Source of the DNA: Eledone cirrhosa
Taxonomy: Eukaryota
Direction of reading: 5' to 3'
DNA length: 64,000 nt
NCBI GenBank assembly: GCA_964016885.1
Contig: OZ024742.1
Location: 148,056,001 to 148,120,000, forward strand
A program made the translations under genes and the position numbers. Positions 5,100 through 58,204 of this stretch are shown piece by piece. A model generated the notes under the pieces. It was not told where the DNA came from and did not search any database. It was given only the letters and a program-made list of their open reading frames with translations. The first letter of the stretch is position 1. The number at the start of each line of letters is the position of its first letter.

Positions 5100-5660
5100 A
5101 GAAATACCATTAAAATTTCTTACTCTACGACTCCTAACCTTGCACATAACATCACAGCTTCAAATTTAGCTAAACTACCTAGCCCTAGGAACACGTGCAA
5201 CTCTGTAGCTAGTACTAACTGTAATTGTAGGAATCGGGTTGACTGCCCCCTATCCGGGAAATGCCTCTCTAGTAACATTGTCTACAAAAGTAAGGTTGAA
5301 ACATCCACGTCCCGTAGGGCCTACATAGGGTTAACCGCCAATAGATTCAAGCAGCGTCTTTACATGCATACCCATTCTTTTCTTAACCCTTTAAGAAGGA
5401 ATATCACGTCACTTTCAGCTTATATCTGGAGTCTAAAAGATAACCACACCCAATATAAGTTACACTGGGAGATCCTAGCTAAGGCTGGATCGTATAACGG
5501 AAATAAAAGACCATGTGACCTCTGCTCTGCTGAGGCCCTGGAACTACTCTACGCCAAAGACTACATCTTAAACAAAAAATCTGAGGCAATTTCGGCTTGT
5601 AAACATAAATTGTACAAAACTTTCCTGTATTACAGCCCCACATTATACCCTAACGGATAG
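5100..5660 (+). pseudogene. Penelope GIY-YIG endonuclease domain remnant
   Basis: RNTIKISYS..PNL, CNCR...CPL.GKCL..NIVY, YIGLTANRFKQRLY.H, T.LS.YIW.LKD, CDLC..E, LNKKSE...CKH. The annotated ORF start (4854) is read-through of pLTR and SINE sequence. Confidence 0.9.
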
Positions 5661-46994: not shown

Positions 46995-48590
46995 CGTGTA
47001 TACATATAATCAAATAAACGTATATAAATAAATAAATACGTATATAACAAGCGCACACACAAACCTACATGTAAATACACTTATGTTCGGAGACGACCGT
47101 CAACCAAAACATGAAGTACACATATACACACACCCTACATACGTACGAACCCGCATACTCACACAGACGCAAAACTCACGTATACACATAACCAAAAGCA
47201 TATGTACCAGAATATATAATATATACGCCATAACATATACAATCAAATATACGTACGAGAAAGTATACGTACCTTCACAAAACATACAGGTAATATATAC
47301 TTACCTATACAAATAAGTAATGGTATAAACATAACATACTTAGCTACCACATCAAGACGTAAAATATCCGCGTATAGTTCGTACTATCCGTTAGGGTATA
47401 ATGTGGGGCTGTAATACAGGAAAGTTTTGTGCAATTTATGTTTACAAGCCGAAATTGCCTCCGATTTTTTGTTTAAGATGTGGTCTTTGGCGTAGAGTAT
47501 TTCCAGGGCCTCAGCGGCGCAGAGGTCACATGGTCTTTTATTTTCGTTATGCGATCTAGCCCTAGCTAGGATCTCCCAGTGTAACTTATATTGGGTCTGG
47601 TTGTCTTTTAGACTCCAGATATAAGCTGAAAGTGACGTCATATTCCTTCTTAAAGGGTAACGAAAAGAATGGGTATGCATGTAAAGACGCTGCTTGAATC
47701 TATTGGCGGTTAACCCTATGTAGGCCCTACGGGACGTGTGTGTTTCAACCTTACATTTGTAGACAATGTTACTAGAGAGGCATTTCCCGGATAGGGGGCA
47801 GTCAACCCGATTCCTACAATTACAGTTAGTACTAGCTACAGGGTTGCACGTGTTCCTACGGCTAGGTAGTTTAGCTAAATTTGAAGCTGTGATGTTATGT
47901 GCAAGGTTAGGAGTCGTAAAGTAAGACATTTTAATAGTATTTCTATTAAAAATTTTACTATATTTATGTGTAGGGGGAAAATGCTTCATAATTGTTTCTA
48001 CTTTAGGCACAAGGCCAGCAAATTACCCAGTACATTACTGGTACTTTATTTTATCGACCCCGTAAGGATGAAAGGCAAAGTTAACCTCGGCGGGATTTGA
48101 ACTCAGACTGTAAAGGGACGTAACTATGCTAGAAAGCATGGCGTCCAACCCTCTACCGATACTGCCAACTTCATAATAAAGGAGAGAAAGATCTTAGCTA
48201 AAGGTTTGGCCACCTCCATATTATATGGTGGGTTATACCATATAATGCGTCGGGATCTATTTCTTCTAGGTCTATTCTCGTACTCTGTATATGCTACCTT
48301 ATCGACAAATCCACACCGAGAAAGAGCTTCATTGTAATATGTGGAATGGTCGTTGAAAATATGCTCGTTAGTAGATAGACGGGAAAGCCTCAGAGAAACG
48401 TTACTTCACCATCATCACTCGTCGACTACTGTCGAGATGATGGATCTCACTCTCATGCCCCAGAATCCCCTGTCCCCCATCGCTGCCCCCAGGTCCTGTC
48501 TGGTGATTCCCGTATCCCTAGAGTTCTTAGTTATGCTGGCAGGATGGTTAGAATGCTTAAAAATGTGTGAAACGCAGCAAAGCGCGGGTA
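46260..48590 (-). mobile_element. Penelope-like element (same family as 4735-5940), decayed
   Basis: SNHPASITKN (~48540), RRIIWYNPPY (~48240), then the GIY-YIG ORF to 47384, 3' UTR, and pLTR at 46260-46735. Confidence 0.9.
47992..48168 (-). mobile_element. SINE inserted in the Penelope ORF
   Basis: 9-bp TSD ATTATGAAG; removing the insert restores ...IFLSFIMKHFPPTHKY. Confidence 0.9.
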
Positions 48591-49989: not shown

Positions 49990-52400
49990 TAAATGGTAAA
50001 CAGAAATAACAACACAATCGGTACAGTATATGGAAAGGATATATTAGGTTAACGCTTGATATATCAGGAAGAGGGTCTTAACGTTTCGGACGTTAGTCCT
50101 TCATCAGAAGAAAAAATGATAAATAAGATAGATTGAGGGGACGGGCGGGATGGAATTGGAAAAAATTACTTTAGATAAAAATTACAATTAGCAAAAGTAT
50201 GTTAATATAAGGGTGTGTATGTGTGTATACAGAGCAGTGAAGGGAAAAGTGGAGTGAGCATATATAGCGGCCTGTATTAGTTGTAAGAGAAGATTTTAAT
50301 GATAAAGAGAAAGCGATAAGAATCTAGGGGTGTGATAATGGATGGGGTATTAGAGAAATTGGGGAGATAAGTTGAGTCCAAGAGGGGAATAGGAACCAAG
50401 GCGGTGAATCAGACTCTGTTCTGTCCTGGTGCGCGAGGCCTGTGATCCATGATGTAAAAGGACACCCAGGACTGAAACATATAGGGAAGAATGACCATGA
50501 GGACAGAAATGACGGGCGACAGGAGTATCCAAACCGAGTCGTATGTCCCTCAAATGCTCGGCAAAACGGTCCGCCATACGGCTCCCCGTTTGCCCGATAT
50601 ATAAAGACCAGCAAAGGGAATACCGGAGGGCATAGACAACGTGGGTGGATGTGCAGGTGAACGAGTGGGGGATACAGAAAGACCCGTTAGGGCCTGTAAG
50701 AGTGGTGAGGGTAGAAATGAAGGTACAAGTGTTGCAGCGGGAACGGGAATAAGGATGAGAGCCGGGTAGAGTCGTGGGAGAGGAGGAGAAAGAACTGCGA
50801 ACCAGGAGGTCACGGAGGTTGCGGGCGCGCTTAAAAGTAGTAATGGGTGGGTTTGGAAAAAGCGAGAAGTGACGGTGTCAGAAGAGAGGATGCGGAAGGA
50901 ACGGAGGATATGCCGCCGGAGTGGTAGGGTGATGGGGTGGTAGGTGAGAGGGAAAGGAACGTAGATGGGAGGGTGGGGGTGCTGTGAGAGGGCTGTGGTG
51001 CGGTCTGTTTCAGGGGTGCGGGTGAGAACAGCTTGGATCAGGGTGTGTGTGTGGGGGGGGGGGGGTATTCACGCTGGGTGAAGCAGGAAGCCATGCGAAG
51101 GGAATGGGTTTCAAAATGTTCGTCCTGGCTACAAAGTCGACGATTACGGAGGAATTGGGAATAGGGTATGGAGTGTTTGGTGTGGGTTGGATGGGAGGAG
51201 GTGAAGTCGAGGTGAGATTGGGAGTCTGTTGGTTTAATGAAGATGGAAGTAGAGAGGGTGTGGTGAGAGTGATTAATAGATAGAGACATATCTAGAAAAG
51301 CGACAGAATAATCAGAGACGGTGAAAAGATAGGACAAAAGAAAGAAAGCCGTCGAGCTGTTCTCGTGATAGAGAGGTGGCGCCGTTACAGCCGTCGATAT
51401 AACGACCGTATAGCTCAGGAGTCGGTCCAGCATACTGGGAGAAGATCTGGGGTTCGATGTAGCCAACAAACAAGTTGGCATAGTTTGGACCCATCTGGTT
51501 CCAATCGCTACCCCAGAGACCTGCTGATAAAATTCACCAGAAAAAGAAAATCTATTGAGGCTGAGAACAAGCACAGCCAGACGGAGAAGAGTGGTAGTGC
51601 TGGGGTAAGGGGTAGGGCGTAAATCTAAAAAATGTTGGAGAGCGCGGAGGCCGTCATCATGAGGGATGACGGTATAGAGAGAAGTGATGTCCAGGGTAAA
51701 GAGAAGGCGGGAGGGACCAGGAGGGAAGGAGAAGGAGTTGAAGAGTCTAAGAGCATGATTTGTATCGTGGATGTGGGAGGGGAGATTGCTGACCAACGGG
51801 ACGAGGATGGTGTCTAAATATTCAGAAATTATCTCGGTGGGGCAGTTGCACGCAGAAACGATAGGACGGCCGGGATTATTTTGTTTGTGTATTTTGGGGC
51901 GGAAGTAGATGGTAGGTGTGCGAGGGGTGCGTACAATAAGGTTGGTGGCTGTGGGGGGTAGGAGAGAGGAGGAGATGAGCGAGCTCGAGGATGGTGGAGG
52001 AGACGAGTTGTTGGTAGCCAGGAGTGGGGTCGGGGGATAAAGGGCGGTAAAAAAGGGTATTGTGAAGCTGGCGGAGAGCCTCAGCTCTATAGAGGTCAGC
52101 ACTCCAAACCACCACAGCGCCACCTTTGTCAGCGGGTTTGATGACAATGTCATCGCGACGCCGAAGGCTGCGAAGAGCAGAGAGCTCAGTCCGTGTGATG
52201 TTAGAGCGATGAGAATGCTGATGGAAACGGAACCGATTCACAGTACACCGGCAAGTATCGACAAAGGAGTCGAGGGTGCTGGACTGGCCAGAGCTCGGCG
52301 TCCAATTGAATAGACGAGAGCGTGTGTGGCGTGTTGGGGGAAGTGGTAACACTTTGGTCCGGTAAACCAAAGGTGTAGGTTCGTATCCAATGTACGTCAA
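49990..52400 (-). mobile_element. Penelope-like element (Neptune/Poseidon-type RT + GIY-YIG), frameshifted
   Basis: IVIKPADKGGAVVV, PKIHK...PGRPIVS, FTLDITSLYT.IP, YQQVSGVAIG/MGPNYANLF, RYIDG, SHP.HTK.SIPYSQFLR.RRLCS, YIGQTG, DRFAEHLR...PVARHF. Confidence 0.92.
50077..50111 (-). ncRNA. Minimal type I hammerhead ribozyme
   Basis: UCUU-CUGAUGA-A-GGAC-UAAC-GUCC-GAAAC-GUU^AAGA in the 3' region of the PLE. Confidence 0.8.
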
Positions 52401-52725: not shown

Positions 52726-52860
<135 letters not shown>

Positions 52861-53054
52861 GATATTAAATAAATGGAAACTATATTTATAAAACCATATT
52901 TATTTCATTATATATATTTCAGGGATATCATATTAACAATATGCTATGCCTTCCTCAGACAAAATACAATATAGACAGTTTTATAGATAAATAGATTTGA
53001 CATACCGTTCAACATCGACTTGTATTTGAAAAGTTGATTTGGCAGTGAAAAAAC

Positions 53055-54183
53055 CGGAGGTTTATATAGAGATGACATGCTTTTACTTATTGATAATAAT
53101 AACTCTGAACTAAATAGAAAATGTAAACAAATTACACAATTTTTTAATTACTTTAATCTTAAAATAGAAATTGAGAACAACCATAGAATAGTCAATTTCC
53201 TAGATATAACATTAAATCTCAACACATGTCTTCACTATCCTTTTCACAAGTTGAATGAAAACTTAAACTATGTCAGCTTTAACTCTAACCACCCCAGATC
53301 TGTCAAAAACACTATAGTAAACTCTGTTCAAAAACGTATCTCTAGAATCTCATCCAATAGAAAGATTTTCGACGAAAAAGCCCAGTACTACAATGAAGCG
53401 TTAGCTAGAGCAGGATATAGTGATAAGATTATGTACATAGATAATGATAGACAAACTAAACAAAATAACAACTATTTTAATTACGGCAACAACCTTAACA
53501 ACTATAATAGAAAGCATTACAATAATTCCAAAAGCCAAAAAAGAAATAGAACTAGGAACATAATTTGGTTTGCCCCCCCTTTCTCACTAAACATTAAAAC
53601 CCACATCGCTAAACTATTTTTTAAAGCTCTTGATAATCGCTTCCCTAGAACACATAGGTATCACTCAATTTTCAATAGACATACTATAAAATTAACCTAC
53701 TCATCCACCAAAAATTTAGCACAAAATATTAATAGAATAAATAATAGGAACTTAAAACCTAGTGATAATAGCATAAATAATATACAAGTTAACAAATGTA
53801 ACTGTAGAGATAGATCTAAATGTCCGTTAAATAACAACTGCTTAGTTAAAAATATAATATACAATTGTAATGTTAAAACTGACTCTAATTCTTTTAACTA
53901 CGTCGGTTCCACATCGACGGAATTTAAACTTCGCTATAATAACCACAAGAATTCTTTCACAGATCCAAGCAAAAAATCTTCAACAGCACTATCAGGCGTA
54001 CTCTGGCAACTTAAGCTAGATAACGTTAGATATTCGACGGCTTGGAATATAGTCTCAAGAGGGATTCCTTTTAATTCATCCTCTGAGACATGTGACCTCT
54101 GCGCAGAGGAGATATTCTTTATACTAAAATCTAAAAATTCCCTTAATCTACGGACAAAATTTATTCAGTTGCTGCAAACATAG
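53055..54183 (+). pseudogene. Penelope RT C-terminus + GIY-YIG, 5'-truncated
   Basis: GLYRDD, VNFLDITLNL, YV..NSNHP, RNIIWFAPPFS, CNCR....CPL.NNCL, YVGSTSTEFKLRYNNH, CDLCAEE. Confidence 0.92.
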
Positions 54184-54688
54184 ATTAAACTCAACTTTTA
54201 AATATGAATTTAAATTTAAAATGTAGTATATTTAGTTTGATTTATAATTATTTGGGAAACTAGCCGATAAATCTTTCGATTTCTTCTTTTTATTCTTCTT
54301 TTTATTTTTATTTTTATTTAAACATTCTTCATGAAAAATTAAACTACCTTAAAAGTTGATGCTCCAAATATTTCGAATAAACGTTACACTAGATAAACTT
54401 CTATATTAAATATAAGAACACATGTAGACCAAATGGGCATCCTAAACTTTGTGAAATGATTTTTGCTAGACGCGATTTGATAAATAATTTTTAGCTTTAT
54501 CTGTTTTCGACTCTGATGCTTATAATGAACTTGGCAATATATTGTCAATTAATTTTGAAGGGTTGATCTTTGTGGTTTGTTTTTATTATTGTAGTATTTT
54601 CTAATATTTTTATTTTTAATATGTAATATTTTTAATATGTAATATTTTTAATATGTAATATTTTTTCGTAATATTTTTTAGTTTTCTA

Positions 54689-54743
<55 letters not shown>

Positions 54744-55602
54744 TTTTTTTTTTTTGGGGGTTTTTGTTTCTGATATTTTTTTTATTAATATATTGAAATC
54801 TGTTCTCTATTTCTGCTTGATAGATAATCACGTAGAGTAAAGACAAGATTAGTAGTAATATAGACTCTATATATATGTGTATATATATACACATATATGT
54901 ATACTTAAATTTTTATAGCACAATGAGAATGTTCTCCGTGGAAAATTGGGGTTTGCAGAGTTGATCACGTAAATTCACATCGATGTTTGTAGTTATCATA
55001 TAAACATATGAATTTTTAAAACTAAACATAAGATCATTACTTTTCACACATTATGGATACGTGTCTCATTCAGGAATACTGATATTTACATTATAGTGCC
55101 TGGTTTTTATACATACTAATACTTCTACATTAAAACATAGGTTTTTTATGCCTCGCCTATGTCTGGTTACTTTTCATTTTTCTCTCTATATAACAGCTGG
55201 TTTCTCTCCTAACCACATATATCTCCCTTACATTAATACTAGAGCTAAATAAATAAATAATTAAATGTATCATTGATACGTTTATTCAACGGATGTCCAA
55301 CCACCTACTTTTCTCTATATATCTATCTCTATCTATCTCCTCTCTCTATATATATCTCTCTCTGTTTCTTTACATGAAGTTCTTCTCTTTATCTATCTTT
55401 CCATCTCTCTATTTTGTTCCATGCATTTCTTCTTTTTCTTCTTTTTCTTCGTTTTCTTTCTTTCTTTTCGTTCTTTCCTTTTTTTCTCTCTTTCTTTCTT
55501 TCTGTTTACAATTTTTTTCACTGCCAAATCAACTTTTCAAATACAAGTCGATGTTGAACGGTATGTCAAATCTATTTATCTATAAAACTGTCTATATTGT
55601 AT

Positions 55603-55660
55603 TTTGTCTGAGGAAGGCATAGCATATTGTTAATATGATATCCCTGAAATATATATAATG
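55603..55660 (+). ncRNA. Hammerhead-like core in pLTR (inverted copy at ~52908-52963)
   Basis: CTGAGGA (55608-55614), long stem II AGG.ATA.CATATT / AATATG.TAT.CCT, GAAA (55646-55649), palindromic TATATA. Confidence 0.55.
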
Positions 55661-55792
55661 AAATAAATATGGTTTTATAAATATAGTTTCCATTTATTTA
55701 ATATCGTAAATATACTCCAAATACTTGTCGAGTGCTTTTATATCAGTTATAAATATTTACTAGTTGTAACCCAACAATTTAAATATAACTTT

Positions 55793-55871
<79 letters not shown>

Positions 55872-55916
55872 GAGAGTAAAACAAAGAAGCCTTCAATACA
55901 TCAAAAGTCTTTATTA

Positions 55917-55954
55917 GCCGACAATGTTTCGTCCTATTAAGGACTCATCAGGGC
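55917..55954 (-). ncRNA. Type I hammerhead ribozyme
   Basis: GCC-CUGAUGA-GUCC-UUAAUA-GGAC-GAAAC-AUU-GUC^GGC; every conserved core base is present; AATAAA follows. Confidence 0.88.
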
Positions 55955-56178
55955 AATTAAAACAACAAGAAGTAATATCGGCAGATACAAGCCGGAAGCT
56001 CCGAAGAATATGAGTGTATGTACACTCCATATTCTGAATTAGCCGTCGAAACGGCTTGAGCTCAGCCGTCGGGGTGTTACTGGTTCCTATATATATATAT
56101 ATATATATATATATTAGTAGAACACTGGAGGGTTATATCCGCAGTAGTAGAACACTCAGTCCATAGGACGAGTTTGGT

Positions 56179-56278
56179 AGAAGTAGTTCCACAACAGTTA
56201 GTTCACCATACCGAGCTGAAGATCCGCTTAAGGTGAAACATTTGTTCTCGGTATGGTGAACTAACTGTTGTGAACTGC

Positions 56279-56282
<4 letters not shown>
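56179..56282 (+). ncRNA. Hammerhead core closed by a ~36-bp stem I
   Basis: Arms 56179-56215 and 56247-56282 pair; the loop reads CUGAAGA-UCC-GCUUAA-GGU-GAAA-CA-UU-UGUU^. Confidence 0.7.
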
Positions 56283-56326
<44 letters not shown>

Positions 56327-58204
56327 GCATGTATATGAGAATTCTTTATTATAACTGAACCATTTTATTGCTGTCAGAAAGGCTGCAAATTCTTGTCACT
56401 TAATGATCGATTCCTGTTAATATTGAAATGAATATTAATGGCATTCTACATACTTGCAGTCGTAGTCATGTTTAACAGATTTATTGTAAATATATTGACG
56501 AGCATTTGTGTGTGTTTGTTTGCGTTTGTGTGTGCATGTGTGTCTCTGTCTGCGTGTCTCTACGTGTGCGTGTGCTTGCATGTGTGTGTTTGTACGTGTG
56601 TGCTTGCCTGTGTGATTGTGTGTCTGTTTGTGTTTGCGTGTGTGTGTTTCTGTGTGTGAGTATTGTACAATATACAAATGAAATGATATTGATATTAACT
56701 ATTAACATTTTATTCAGCCAGTGCTATATTGAGAAACCGGAGATAATATGATAAATATAATTAAATAAATTGTATTAAATATATGTGTAATTACATTAGA
56801 TATAATTATATAATACAATAGGAAATATACTCTAAGATAATATAATATAGAATGTAATATAACGTAATATAGTATAATATCATATAACATAATTTAATAT
56901 TATGTAATGTAATACAATATAATATAATATAATATAATATAATATAATATATTTAAAAAAAATGTTGTCGATGATTCGTTGCTTGGTTCTAAATGTTTAA
57001 CTAGTCTCTTCCTCGAAATATTTGAAGGGGGTATATTAGCTTTATCTACAGACATATTTATACAAAGCAATAAGGAAATGAAGAATAAAAGAAAAGGAAA
57101 AGAAATAAAATTAATGAAGAAATTAAACAACGAAAGGAGAAGGAAAAGTGGGAAGTTCTATATTGGGAAAAGAAATACAAAGCACCGCAAGGGAAATATC
57201 AGACCTGTCAACTCTCCTCGTCCGACGGGGAGATCTTCCACCCACTTTGAAAATGGGTATAGCCTCTTGTGAAAATGGGTATAGCTTTTATTATGTAAAA
57301 TCTCCCAATTTTGCCTCACTTCTCCCCGTTTTGGGGCACTTTTTTTCATAGTATCCCTGTCTGAAATATATAAAATACAAATATGAACCGTTGACTGCAA
57401 ACATTCATAAGTATAGATAGGTTCTTGTATCGTGTTCAGAAGAGGCAACTGACGTCTCTGGGCTGATTCATGCAAGCATTTTTTTGTCTTTCGAACGAAG
57501 GGGATCGCTGATGTTGTCGTCGTTGTGGTGGTTGCTGTTGTTGTTATTGACGATGTCGTCGTTGTCGTCGTTGTTTAAACCCAGCTCAGCTCGCATCAAG
57601 TAGAATTATGGTTAAATGTGTTTCAACTGTGACATTTTGAGTTTTTAAGACAAAGCATATCCAGCATTACATTATCATTTACTTTTTAAGATTGTTGGGT
57701 GTGATTAGAGAGAAACAAGACTGCTATTTCGAGCAGATACAGTGGTTACTGTATCTGTTCAAGCAGTCTTGTTTTGTTCGCCATACCACTGACCTTAAAA
57801 ACCAATGTCATTTGGTGATAAGTTTTAAATGGAAATAGGCAGTGAACTAGACGGCCTGAGTGCAAATTCCGCCAAGGTTAATATTGCCTTTCATCCTTTC
57901 GAGTCTGATAAAATTGTGCCAATCCAGCACTGGGATCAATATCTCTTTCTTATTTCCTCTCTCTTAACCTCCCCTTTTCTTGAAGAAATCGGTCAGTGGT
58001 TGAAGGATGGGCCTCTACGGCAACTGCAACGACTCCATTACAAGACAAAATGCATTGAGAATGAAAGTCAGACAGTTGGAGGGAGAGGGATAGAAATGGA
58101 GGGGGGAAGAGAGAGATAGAGTGGGTAAGTAATGGAGGGACGGGGAGAGAGATAAGGGTGGGAGAGAGAGAGGAAGAGAAAAAGAAAGAGAAGATACGTT
58201 ACCC

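What the first reader, a model, noticed from the sequence alone, without database searches (positions are those of the whole stretch)
56179..56282. Hammerhead catalytic core forming the loop of a long inverted repeat
Seen: ~36-bp arms (AGAAGTAGTTCCACAACAGTTAGTTCACCATACCGAG / CTCGGTATGGTGAACTAACTGTTGTGAACTGCTTCT) enclose exactly CTGAAGA-TCCGCTTAAGGT-GAAA-CATTTGTT. The pairing register places the arms as stem I and GUU as the cleavage triplet. Known: Penelope-associated type I hammerheads normally have a stem I of only a few bp. Inference: a compact, ORF-less ribozyme hairpin element between microsatellites, possibly a non-autonomous mobile RNA or an inversion made at the cleavage site. Stem II is weak (U-U closing pair).
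Basis: partly seen in the sequence, partly recalled or inferred. Interest (0 to 1): 0.75.

Follow-up and report, generated by a model that had tools for sequence, protein, structure and literature searches.

The report
Head-to-head Hydra Penelope retrotransposon stump
The hairpin and its hammerhead-ribozyme motif are real, but they are two cut-short ends of an abundant Penelope-like jumping gene lying head to head in a TA repeat, likely joined during one insertion through the ribozyme's own short stem, so this is ordinary transposon debris and not a new mobile RNA.

Summary
The arms and the hammerhead core are as described. They are part of a 168-bp insert (56115-56282) between TA repeats. The core occurs 4,791 times in the genome (control 0). 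Longer copies lead into a 2,577-bp unit of end repeat, RT + GIY-YIG gene and end repeat, with Hydra-clade Penelope-like motifs. The U-U closing pair is common in published Hydra hammerheads. The insert is a tail-bearing copy (minus strand, +101 to +1 from the cut site) and a short copy (plus strand, -37 to +37), overlapping in the 6-nt native stem I. Head-to-head pairs are half of sampled copies (50 of 100). The window-type join is rare (10 exact matches) and arose repeatedly. Only 1 of 100 copies ends at the cut site, so cleavage is not shown to make the join. The 36-bp 'stem I' is a DNA inversion, not an RNA adaptation. This insertion shape is published, and this scan had already reported it at other loci.

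The parts
56088..56114 (.). (TA)n target repeat, left flank
   Evidence: nearly all copies sit in (TA)n
56115..56178 (-). One-sided 64-nt 'tail' of the element (+101 to +38 from the predicted cut site), between its two fixed outer ends
   Evidence: follows the arm in 2,272 sense-strand pattern matches; present after both end repeats of full-length L091; window 56115-56215 is 93-94% identical to long copies L072 and L063
56154..56173 (-). Small bulged hairpin in the tail, just past the short outer end; possibly a cue for RT initiation (inferred, lead from earlier notes)
   Evidence: -8.4 kcal/mol, z -2.1; each of its 8 pairs is unchanged in 77-93 of 100 copies, with no compensatory change among the listed variants
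56179..56215 (-). Left arm: minus-strand copy of element positions +37 to +1
56210..56215 (.). 6-nt overlap at the join; reads both as +6..+1 of the left copy and as the native 5' strand of stem I (-37..-32) of the right copy
   Evidence: overlap 6; native upstream sequence in L063, L072
56216..56246 (+). Type I hammerhead core, Hydra-type: CUGAAGA, U-U plus 2 C-G stem II, GAAA, short near-palindromic stem III, GUU triplet; predicted cut 56246/56247 (untested)
   Evidence: same core format in published Hydra families
56247..56282 (+). Right arm: element positions +1 to +37 (one base deleted), ending at the short fixed outer end
   Evidence: 43 of 50 partner arms end at +34 to +39
56283..56326 (.). 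(CT)n then (AT)n right flank; the CT run continues the element's last bases
   Evidence: similar CT runs after L006, L016, L023, L028

Best explanation
This is a 168-bp insert made of two truncated ends of a Hydra-type Penelope-like retrotransposon lying head to head in a TA repeat, likely produced in a single insertion event. Shown: the parent element, the two fixed outer ends (+37 and +101), variable inner ends, and a 6-nt overlap at the native stem I. Inferred mechanism: the element's GIY-YIG endonuclease nicks both strands of (TA)n. Reverse transcription starts from each nick at one of two internal RNA sites 64 nt apart, and both cDNAs stop early in or near the ribozyme. Their 3' ends then anneal through stem I complementarity and are repaired. 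Because the 5' strand of stem I is the reverse complement of the first bases after the cut site, the join is seamless and mimics a 36-bp stem I. The hammerhead is the parent's ordinary end-repeat ribozyme, predicted to need a dimer or protein help. The insert has no ORF and is likely dead.
For: Parent: L091 has the core, arm and tail twice, 2,577 bp apart, around an RT/GIY-YIG frame. Long copies of the window's own subfamily carry endonuclease-coding remnants 45-81% identical to it. Homologue clusters carry GIY-YIG, HTH_animal and DUF8422 domains. Hydra diagnostics are met. Head-to-head partner in 50 of 100 tail-bearing copies, with joins from +8 to -93; 24 of 50 have overlaps of 1 nt or more. 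Both arms share the same subfamily variant in 47 of 51 pairs, against 15.1 expected. The exact join occurs at only 10 places, with the tail on the core-less arm in 6, on the core side in 2 and absent in 2, in several subfamilies. Literature: an inverted 5'-truncated copy plus one-sided tail (PMC8557442, PMC3846280); both strands cut, two internal RT starts that define the tail, and ribozyme mutants still insert in vitro (PMC11167929).
Against: The twin-start and annealing steps are inferred from sequence and from a different clade (Poseidon, in vitro). 20 of 50 joins have inserted bases and 6 are blunt, so microhomology is not required. The tail (64 nt) is longer than the published 30-40 bp. 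No Pfam family passes on three parent ORFs and no PDB sequence matches one. No tree against named Hydra sequences was built, and the motif reads RWR rather than RWK.
Confidence: 0.85

Rival explanations
1. The ribozyme cut the template: one cDNA ran off an RNA cleaved at GUU (ending at +1) and then annealed to the second cDNA through stem I. The insert would be a fossil of cleavage in vivo.
For: The core-less arm ends exactly at +1. Ten places share this join. One sampled copy (L108) ends at +1 with an unrelated join.
Against: Only 1 of 100 unselected tail-bearing copies ends at +1, against 8 at -2 to -4 and about 50 at -13 to -39. The 6-nt overlap leaves the break anywhere from +1 to +7. Uncleaved RNA was the main substrate in vitro, and no reads ended at the cut site in anole (PMC11167929).
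Confidence: 0.12
2. Fold-back self-priming: one cDNA or antisense template folds back at stem I and copies itself, as proposed for palindromic joins in rotifer Penelope elements.
For: About 7 of 50 joins are centred on the element's own short palindromes near -10, -26 to -29 and -32 (two of them, L195 and L197, may be one duplicated event). PMC3846280 Discussion.
Against: Here the core-bearing copy stops at +37 while the other arm runs to +101, so fold-back of the core-bearing strand cannot supply the tail without a template switch. 43 of 50 partner arms end at a fixed site.
Confidence: 0.15
3. A non-autonomous hairpin-ribozyme RNA (retrozyme- or SINE-like) that spreads as a unit, with a selected long stem I.
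For: One search returned 40 of 40 scored places matching nearly the whole 168 bp at 84-100%. Non-autonomous hammerhead retrozymes related to Penelope ends exist (bioRxiv 10.64898/2026.07.22.740005).
Against: Those copies differ at the join. The exact join has 10 matches against 4,791 cores. Rare changes fall on one arm only in 63 cases and on both in 5, so pairing is not maintained. No tandem array here. The active fold is about 0.06% of the predicted ensemble.
Confidence: 0.03

Closest known systems
Hydra clade of Penelope-like elements (Craig et al. 2021, PMC8557442), including Hydra-1_Obim
   Same: Unit under 3 kb, C-terminal GIY-YIG, DKT, CxCX5C linker, CxxC and CxH motifs, no CCHH, (TA)n targets. 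Hammerhead with CUGAnGAU...UGAA core, short palindromic stem III and U at H17, as in Hydra-1_aJap, Hydra-1_cRog and several Penelope_HM rows.
   Different: A different family from Hydra-1_Obim: the protein is alike by eye only, that element's hammerhead has a 7-bp stem II, and two short motifs of this ribozyme were not found in a Hydra or HHR entry among the supplement places shown. Stem II here has only 2 C-G pairs, shorter than the 3-7 bp in the 18 rows seen. RWR instead of RWK.
Inverted 5'-truncated pLTR plus one-sided tail of endonuclease-bearing Penelope-like elements (PMC3846280; PMC8557442 Fig. 2 legend; PMC11167929)
   Same: Head-to-head inverted copy, tail on one end only, overlapping or palindromic joins, AT-rich target.
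   Different: Both copies are reduced to about 100 and 75 bp, the tail is 64 nt rather than 30-40, and the join falls on stem I so that the core forms the loop of the inverted repeat.
Minimal, dimer-acting hammerheads of metazoan Penelope-like elements (Cervera and de la Pena 2014, PMC4209133)
   Same: Type I, short helix I, tiny palindromic helix III, located in both end repeats.
   Different: Lacks their conserved G10.1-C11.1 pair and long (6-8 bp) helix II.
Metazoan non-LTR retrozymes (bioRxiv 10.64898/2026.07.22.740005)
   Same: Short, non-coding, type I hammerhead, related to Penelope ends.
   Different: Retrozymes are direct tandem repeats with a ribozyme in each unit. This is a single inverted pair with one core and a variable join.

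Membership tests
Hydra-clade Penelope-like element (parent) | Single ORF with RT followed by C-terminal GIY-YIG endonuclease | tested here: met
   Frames of 589-722 aa with FDIVDFYPSI, YRDD and VIYEA...YVG motifs (motif labels from my own knowledge); homologue clusters carry PF01541. Pfam gave no direct hit.
Hydra-clade Penelope-like element (parent) | Direct end repeats with hammerheads; unit under 3 kb | tested here: met
   L091 cores at 2747 and 5324, 2,577 bp apart
Hydra-clade Penelope-like element (parent) | DKG changed to DKT; CxCX5C linker; CxxC and CxH motifs; CCHH absent | tested here: met
   SDKT, CSCRKPEAC, CGLC, CPH, and no cysteines inside the GIY-YIG hairpin against the definition
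Hydra-clade Penelope-like element (parent) | N-terminal RWK motif | tested here: inconclusive
   RWR in L091 and L096
Hydra-clade Penelope-like element (parent) | Insertion into (TA)n | tested here: met
Hydra-clade Penelope-like element (parent) | RT phylogeny within the Hydra clade | not tested
   Only a by-eye comparison with Hydra-1_Obim as printed
Penelope-like inverted insertion unit | Inverted 5'-truncated copy next to the direct copy, with a tail on one end only | tested here: met
   50 of 100 copies
Type I hammerhead ribozyme | Conserved core CUGANGA / GAAA / UH with three helices | tested here: met
   core in 4,791 places
Type I hammerhead ribozyme | G10.1-C11.1 closing pair and a stable stem II; Rfam RF00163 score | tested here: not met
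   U-U, C-G, C-G in 77 of 91 stored cores; no Rfam hit at this motif. U-U is the usual Hydra variant.
Type I hammerhead ribozyme | Self-cleavage at H17 | not testable with these tools
   Needs an in vitro assay or RNA 5'-end data
Non-LTR retrozyme | Direct tandem units, each with a hammerhead | tested here: not met
   No tandem array at the locus; copies are inverted pairs with variable joins

The most novel reading that the evidence does not exclude
The hammerhead domain, rather than its cut, sets where Hydra-element cDNAs end and join. Arms that start 64 nt apart stop in the same 50-nt zone (77 of 100 long arms and 44 of 50 short arms end between +8 and -45; only 6 long arms end between -46 and -220), and the ribozyme's own helices and palindromes supply the annealing points. 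The ribozyme would then be the structural cause of Penelope inverted stumps, and rare stem I joins like this one would create ribozymes with a locked 36-bp helix I that might cut host transcripts.
Probability: 0.2. Interest if true: 0.5.

Novelty: new member of a known kind. Interest (0 to 1): 0.17.

Why it matters
As a single locus it matters little: it is one of thousands of dead stumps of a known kind of retrotransposon. It is a warning that long 'stem I' hammerheads and apparent arm covariation in animal genomes can be DNA inversion artefacts. As a population, the copies are a free read-out of a mechanism that is still open. The two fixed outer ends match the two-start model shown in vitro for one Poseidon element. 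The lack of a pile-up at the cut site agrees with uncleaved RNA being the template. The concentration of inner ends in the ribozyme zone could be used to find the transcript's 5' end or an RT stall.

Tried and rejected
Rfam at gathering score (whole window) and at E<=10 (55700-56500) did not detect this motif; the miRNA and snoRNA hits are microsatellite or hairpin noise. Pfam on three parent ORFs gave nothing passing, and PDB sequences gave no match for one ORF. Sequencing runs: no RNA holder listed, which says nothing on expression. Laying contigs of 3 of the 4 listed runs gave only short repeat pieces, none spanning the insert. A hot spot of ends at the cut site was tested and not found (1 of 100). 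Arm covariation as evidence of RNA selection was rejected: arms match because they are copies. A second hairpin past the long end, suggested by earlier notes, was not supported in L091 or L095 (z -0.15 to +1.1). A search of earlier findings by sequence gave nothing. Paper search 'Penelope, hammerhead, truncation, twin priming' gave 0 papers; 'Octopus, Penelope, hammerhead' gave 5 papers, 4 listed, none on this family by title or abstract start. Lunse et al. on small dimeric Penelope hammerheads was not held, so this exact variant may be described there.

Full report
Observation. Arms 56179-56215 and 56247-56282 pair over 36 positions with one bulge and one G-U (z -11.9, 0 of 200 shuffles). The 31-nt loop holds CUGAAGA at 56216, GAAA at 56235 and GUU ending at 56246. 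Rfam does not score it. Coordinates below count from the predicted cut: +1 = 56247.

It is a dispersed repeat, larger than the finding. The window lies in a 3.0-Gb genome. Searching with 56115-56282 gave 3,561 candidates, and all 40 scored places matched nearly the whole length at 84-100%. In the 30 loci fetched, the ends were constant and flanked by (TA)n or related simple repeats, but the join between left arm and core varied (part's output was cut). This suggested that the left part is a reversed copy of a longer unit. A pattern for the core's 3' half followed by the reversed left part matched 2,272 places, control 0, and the core alone matched 4,791, control 0.

Parent element. Six of the 30 loci ran on upstream into a 3' UTR or coding sequence, five of them into an endonuclease-like frame. 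So did L063, L069 and L072 among 14 matches of the window's own subfamily. An RT piece gave 32,880 candidates, 150 scored at 87-100%. L091 is full length: core, arm and tail at 2747-2872 and again at 5324-5449, around a 722-codon open frame. The protein has SDKT, RWR, FDIVDFYPSI, YRDD, CSCRKPEAC, a GIY-YIG-like segment without cysteines, CGLC and CPH (the RT motif labels are from my own knowledge). These match the definition of the Hydra clade in Craig et al. 2021 (PMC8557442, section 11 read), except RWR for RWK. Homologues number 946 among 7,997 scored candidates, best 37-50% identical, and carry PF26215, PF28514 or PF01541 (Atlas clusters agree). Direct Pfam and PDB searches were blank. The paper's supplement lists Hydra-1_Obim, (TA)n-targeted and 2,507 bp long. 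Its protein resembles this one by eye, but its hammerhead differs, so this is a sister family. No tree was built.

The ribozyme. In 91 distinct cores in stored loci, stem II is U-U, C-G, C-G in 77, stem III reads CAAUUGU (57) or CAUUUGU (26), and H17 is U in 90. The supplement's hammerhead table shows the same CUGAnGAU...UGAA core, palindromic stem III and frequent U at H17 in Hydra-1_aJap, Hydra-1_cRog and many Penelope_HM rows (18 rows seen). The U-U pair is therefore a clade trait; the 2-bp stem II is shorter than in those rows. In native context, constrained folding gave a proximal stem I of about 3-6 bp, extended across a mismatch or bulge by a distal helix (9 of 11 planned loci folded before the script stopped). 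None of the 9 adopts the hammerhead fold as its free minimum. In the window hairpin the hammerhead-compatible states are about 0.06% of the ensemble (nearest-neighbour model, no tertiary contacts). This fits the low, dimer-dependent activity reported for metazoan Penelope hammerheads (PMC4209133, parts 1-2 of 4 read; PMC6765202, passages) and protein-assisted cleavage in the anole element (PMC11167929, parts 1-2 of 4 read). Cleavage was not tested here.

Anatomy of the insert. The left copy lies on the minus strand from +101 to +1, and the right copy on the plus strand from -37 to +37. They overlap by 6 nt, because the 5' strand of native stem I is the reverse complement of +1..+6. To sample without selecting on the join I took the first 100 listed of 1,713 matches to a tail-plus-arm pattern, all on contig C1. 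Fifty have an inverted partner within about 330 nt; longer partners would be missed. Partner arms end at +34 to +39 in 43 of 50. The long end was capped by my reference (93 of 100 reach +95 or more) and reads +101 directly from the window. The script scored the window's own short end as +26 because of its deleted base. Inner ends: 77 of 100 long arms at -45 or closer, 6 between -46 and -220, 17 beyond; 44 of 50 partners at -45 or closer. Joins: 24 with overlap, 6 blunt, 20 with inserted bases; two overlaps of 15 look like alignment artefacts. Only L108 ends at +1. The window-type join matches exactly at 10 places including the window. They carry different stem II loops, stem III and arm variants, and the tail is on the core-less arm in 6, on the core side in 2 and missing in 2. 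They arose independently. Across 77 arm pairs from 130 loci (at least L025/L110 is one place counted twice), both arms share a subfamily variant in 47 of the 51 pairs with common variants, against 15.1 expected. Rare changes are mirrored in 5 cases and one-sided in 63. The arms were copied from the same kind of template and then decayed without keeping their pairing.

Mechanism. Shown: parent, two fixed outer ends, variable inner ends, stem I overlap, TA targets. Inferred: both strands are nicked, RT starts at two internal sites, both cDNAs stop early, and their ends anneal. The first two steps were shown in vitro for a Poseidon element, where the tail is the distance between two starts and ribozyme mutants still insert. 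The inverted-copy-plus-tail shape is described in PMC8557442 (passages) and PMC3846280 (passages and Discussion); the latter proposes self-priming instead. Why the ends crowd into the ribozyme zone is open: RT stalling at structure, annealing at its palindromes, or run-off at a transcript start near -45. Unrepresented subfamilies could also end some of my alignments early near -32 to -37.

Verdict. Real motif, known class, known insertion shape; the family itself was not found in the searches named. The scan had already reported such stumps in this and other genomes. I reached this reading before consulting those notes. Lunse et al. could not be read, and the bioRxiv retrozyme paper was read only in part 1 of 5, with its supplements closed. 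Either may list this variant.

Noticed in passing
window 55869-56026 (-), hammerhead at 55913-55957: End of a second, unrelated hammerhead-bearing repeat with a canonical core (Rfam RF00163 31.7 bits, E 7.7e-6, below the gathering score of 34). 2,532 candidates, many 98% identical. One copy (L211) sits by an RT-like frame, and L209 is head to head. It is cut at its own short end into (TA)n, 60-90 bp from the studied insert.
   Followed up: partly
window 52851-55713: Another Penelope-like remnant: 202-bp inverted ends 99.5% identical (52851-53052 and 55512-55713), each with a hammerhead-like motif with a long stem II (52958 -, 55608 +), and a frame at 53059-54162 that is 36% identical to the studied parent.
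   Followed up: partly
window 47495-48402 (-), 5100-5549 (+), 6682 (-): Further decayed Penelope-like coding pieces (28-34% identity) and one more hammerhead-like motif.
   Followed up: no
window 56154-56173 (-): Bulged hairpin in the tail, 5 nt past the short end, kept in most of 100 copies. Earlier notes propose such hairpins as RT start cues.
   Followed up: partly
window 56036-56087: Fragment of another very abundant palindromic repeat, with very high summed contig depth. Similar sequence lies in the flanks of L004, L053, L061 and L065.
   Followed up: no
window 52328-52399 (+): tRNA-like sequence, Rfam 31.6 bits; possibly a SINE head or pseudogene.
   Followed up: no
L091 431-1516 (-): 362-codon frame that looks like a mariner-type transposase (label recalled, not searched).
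   Followed up: no
L107-L206 (contig C1): Inner ends are bimodal: 77 of 100 within 45 nt upstream of the cut site, 6 in the next 175 nt, 17 longer. There is a small cluster of 8 at -2 to -4.
   Followed up: partly
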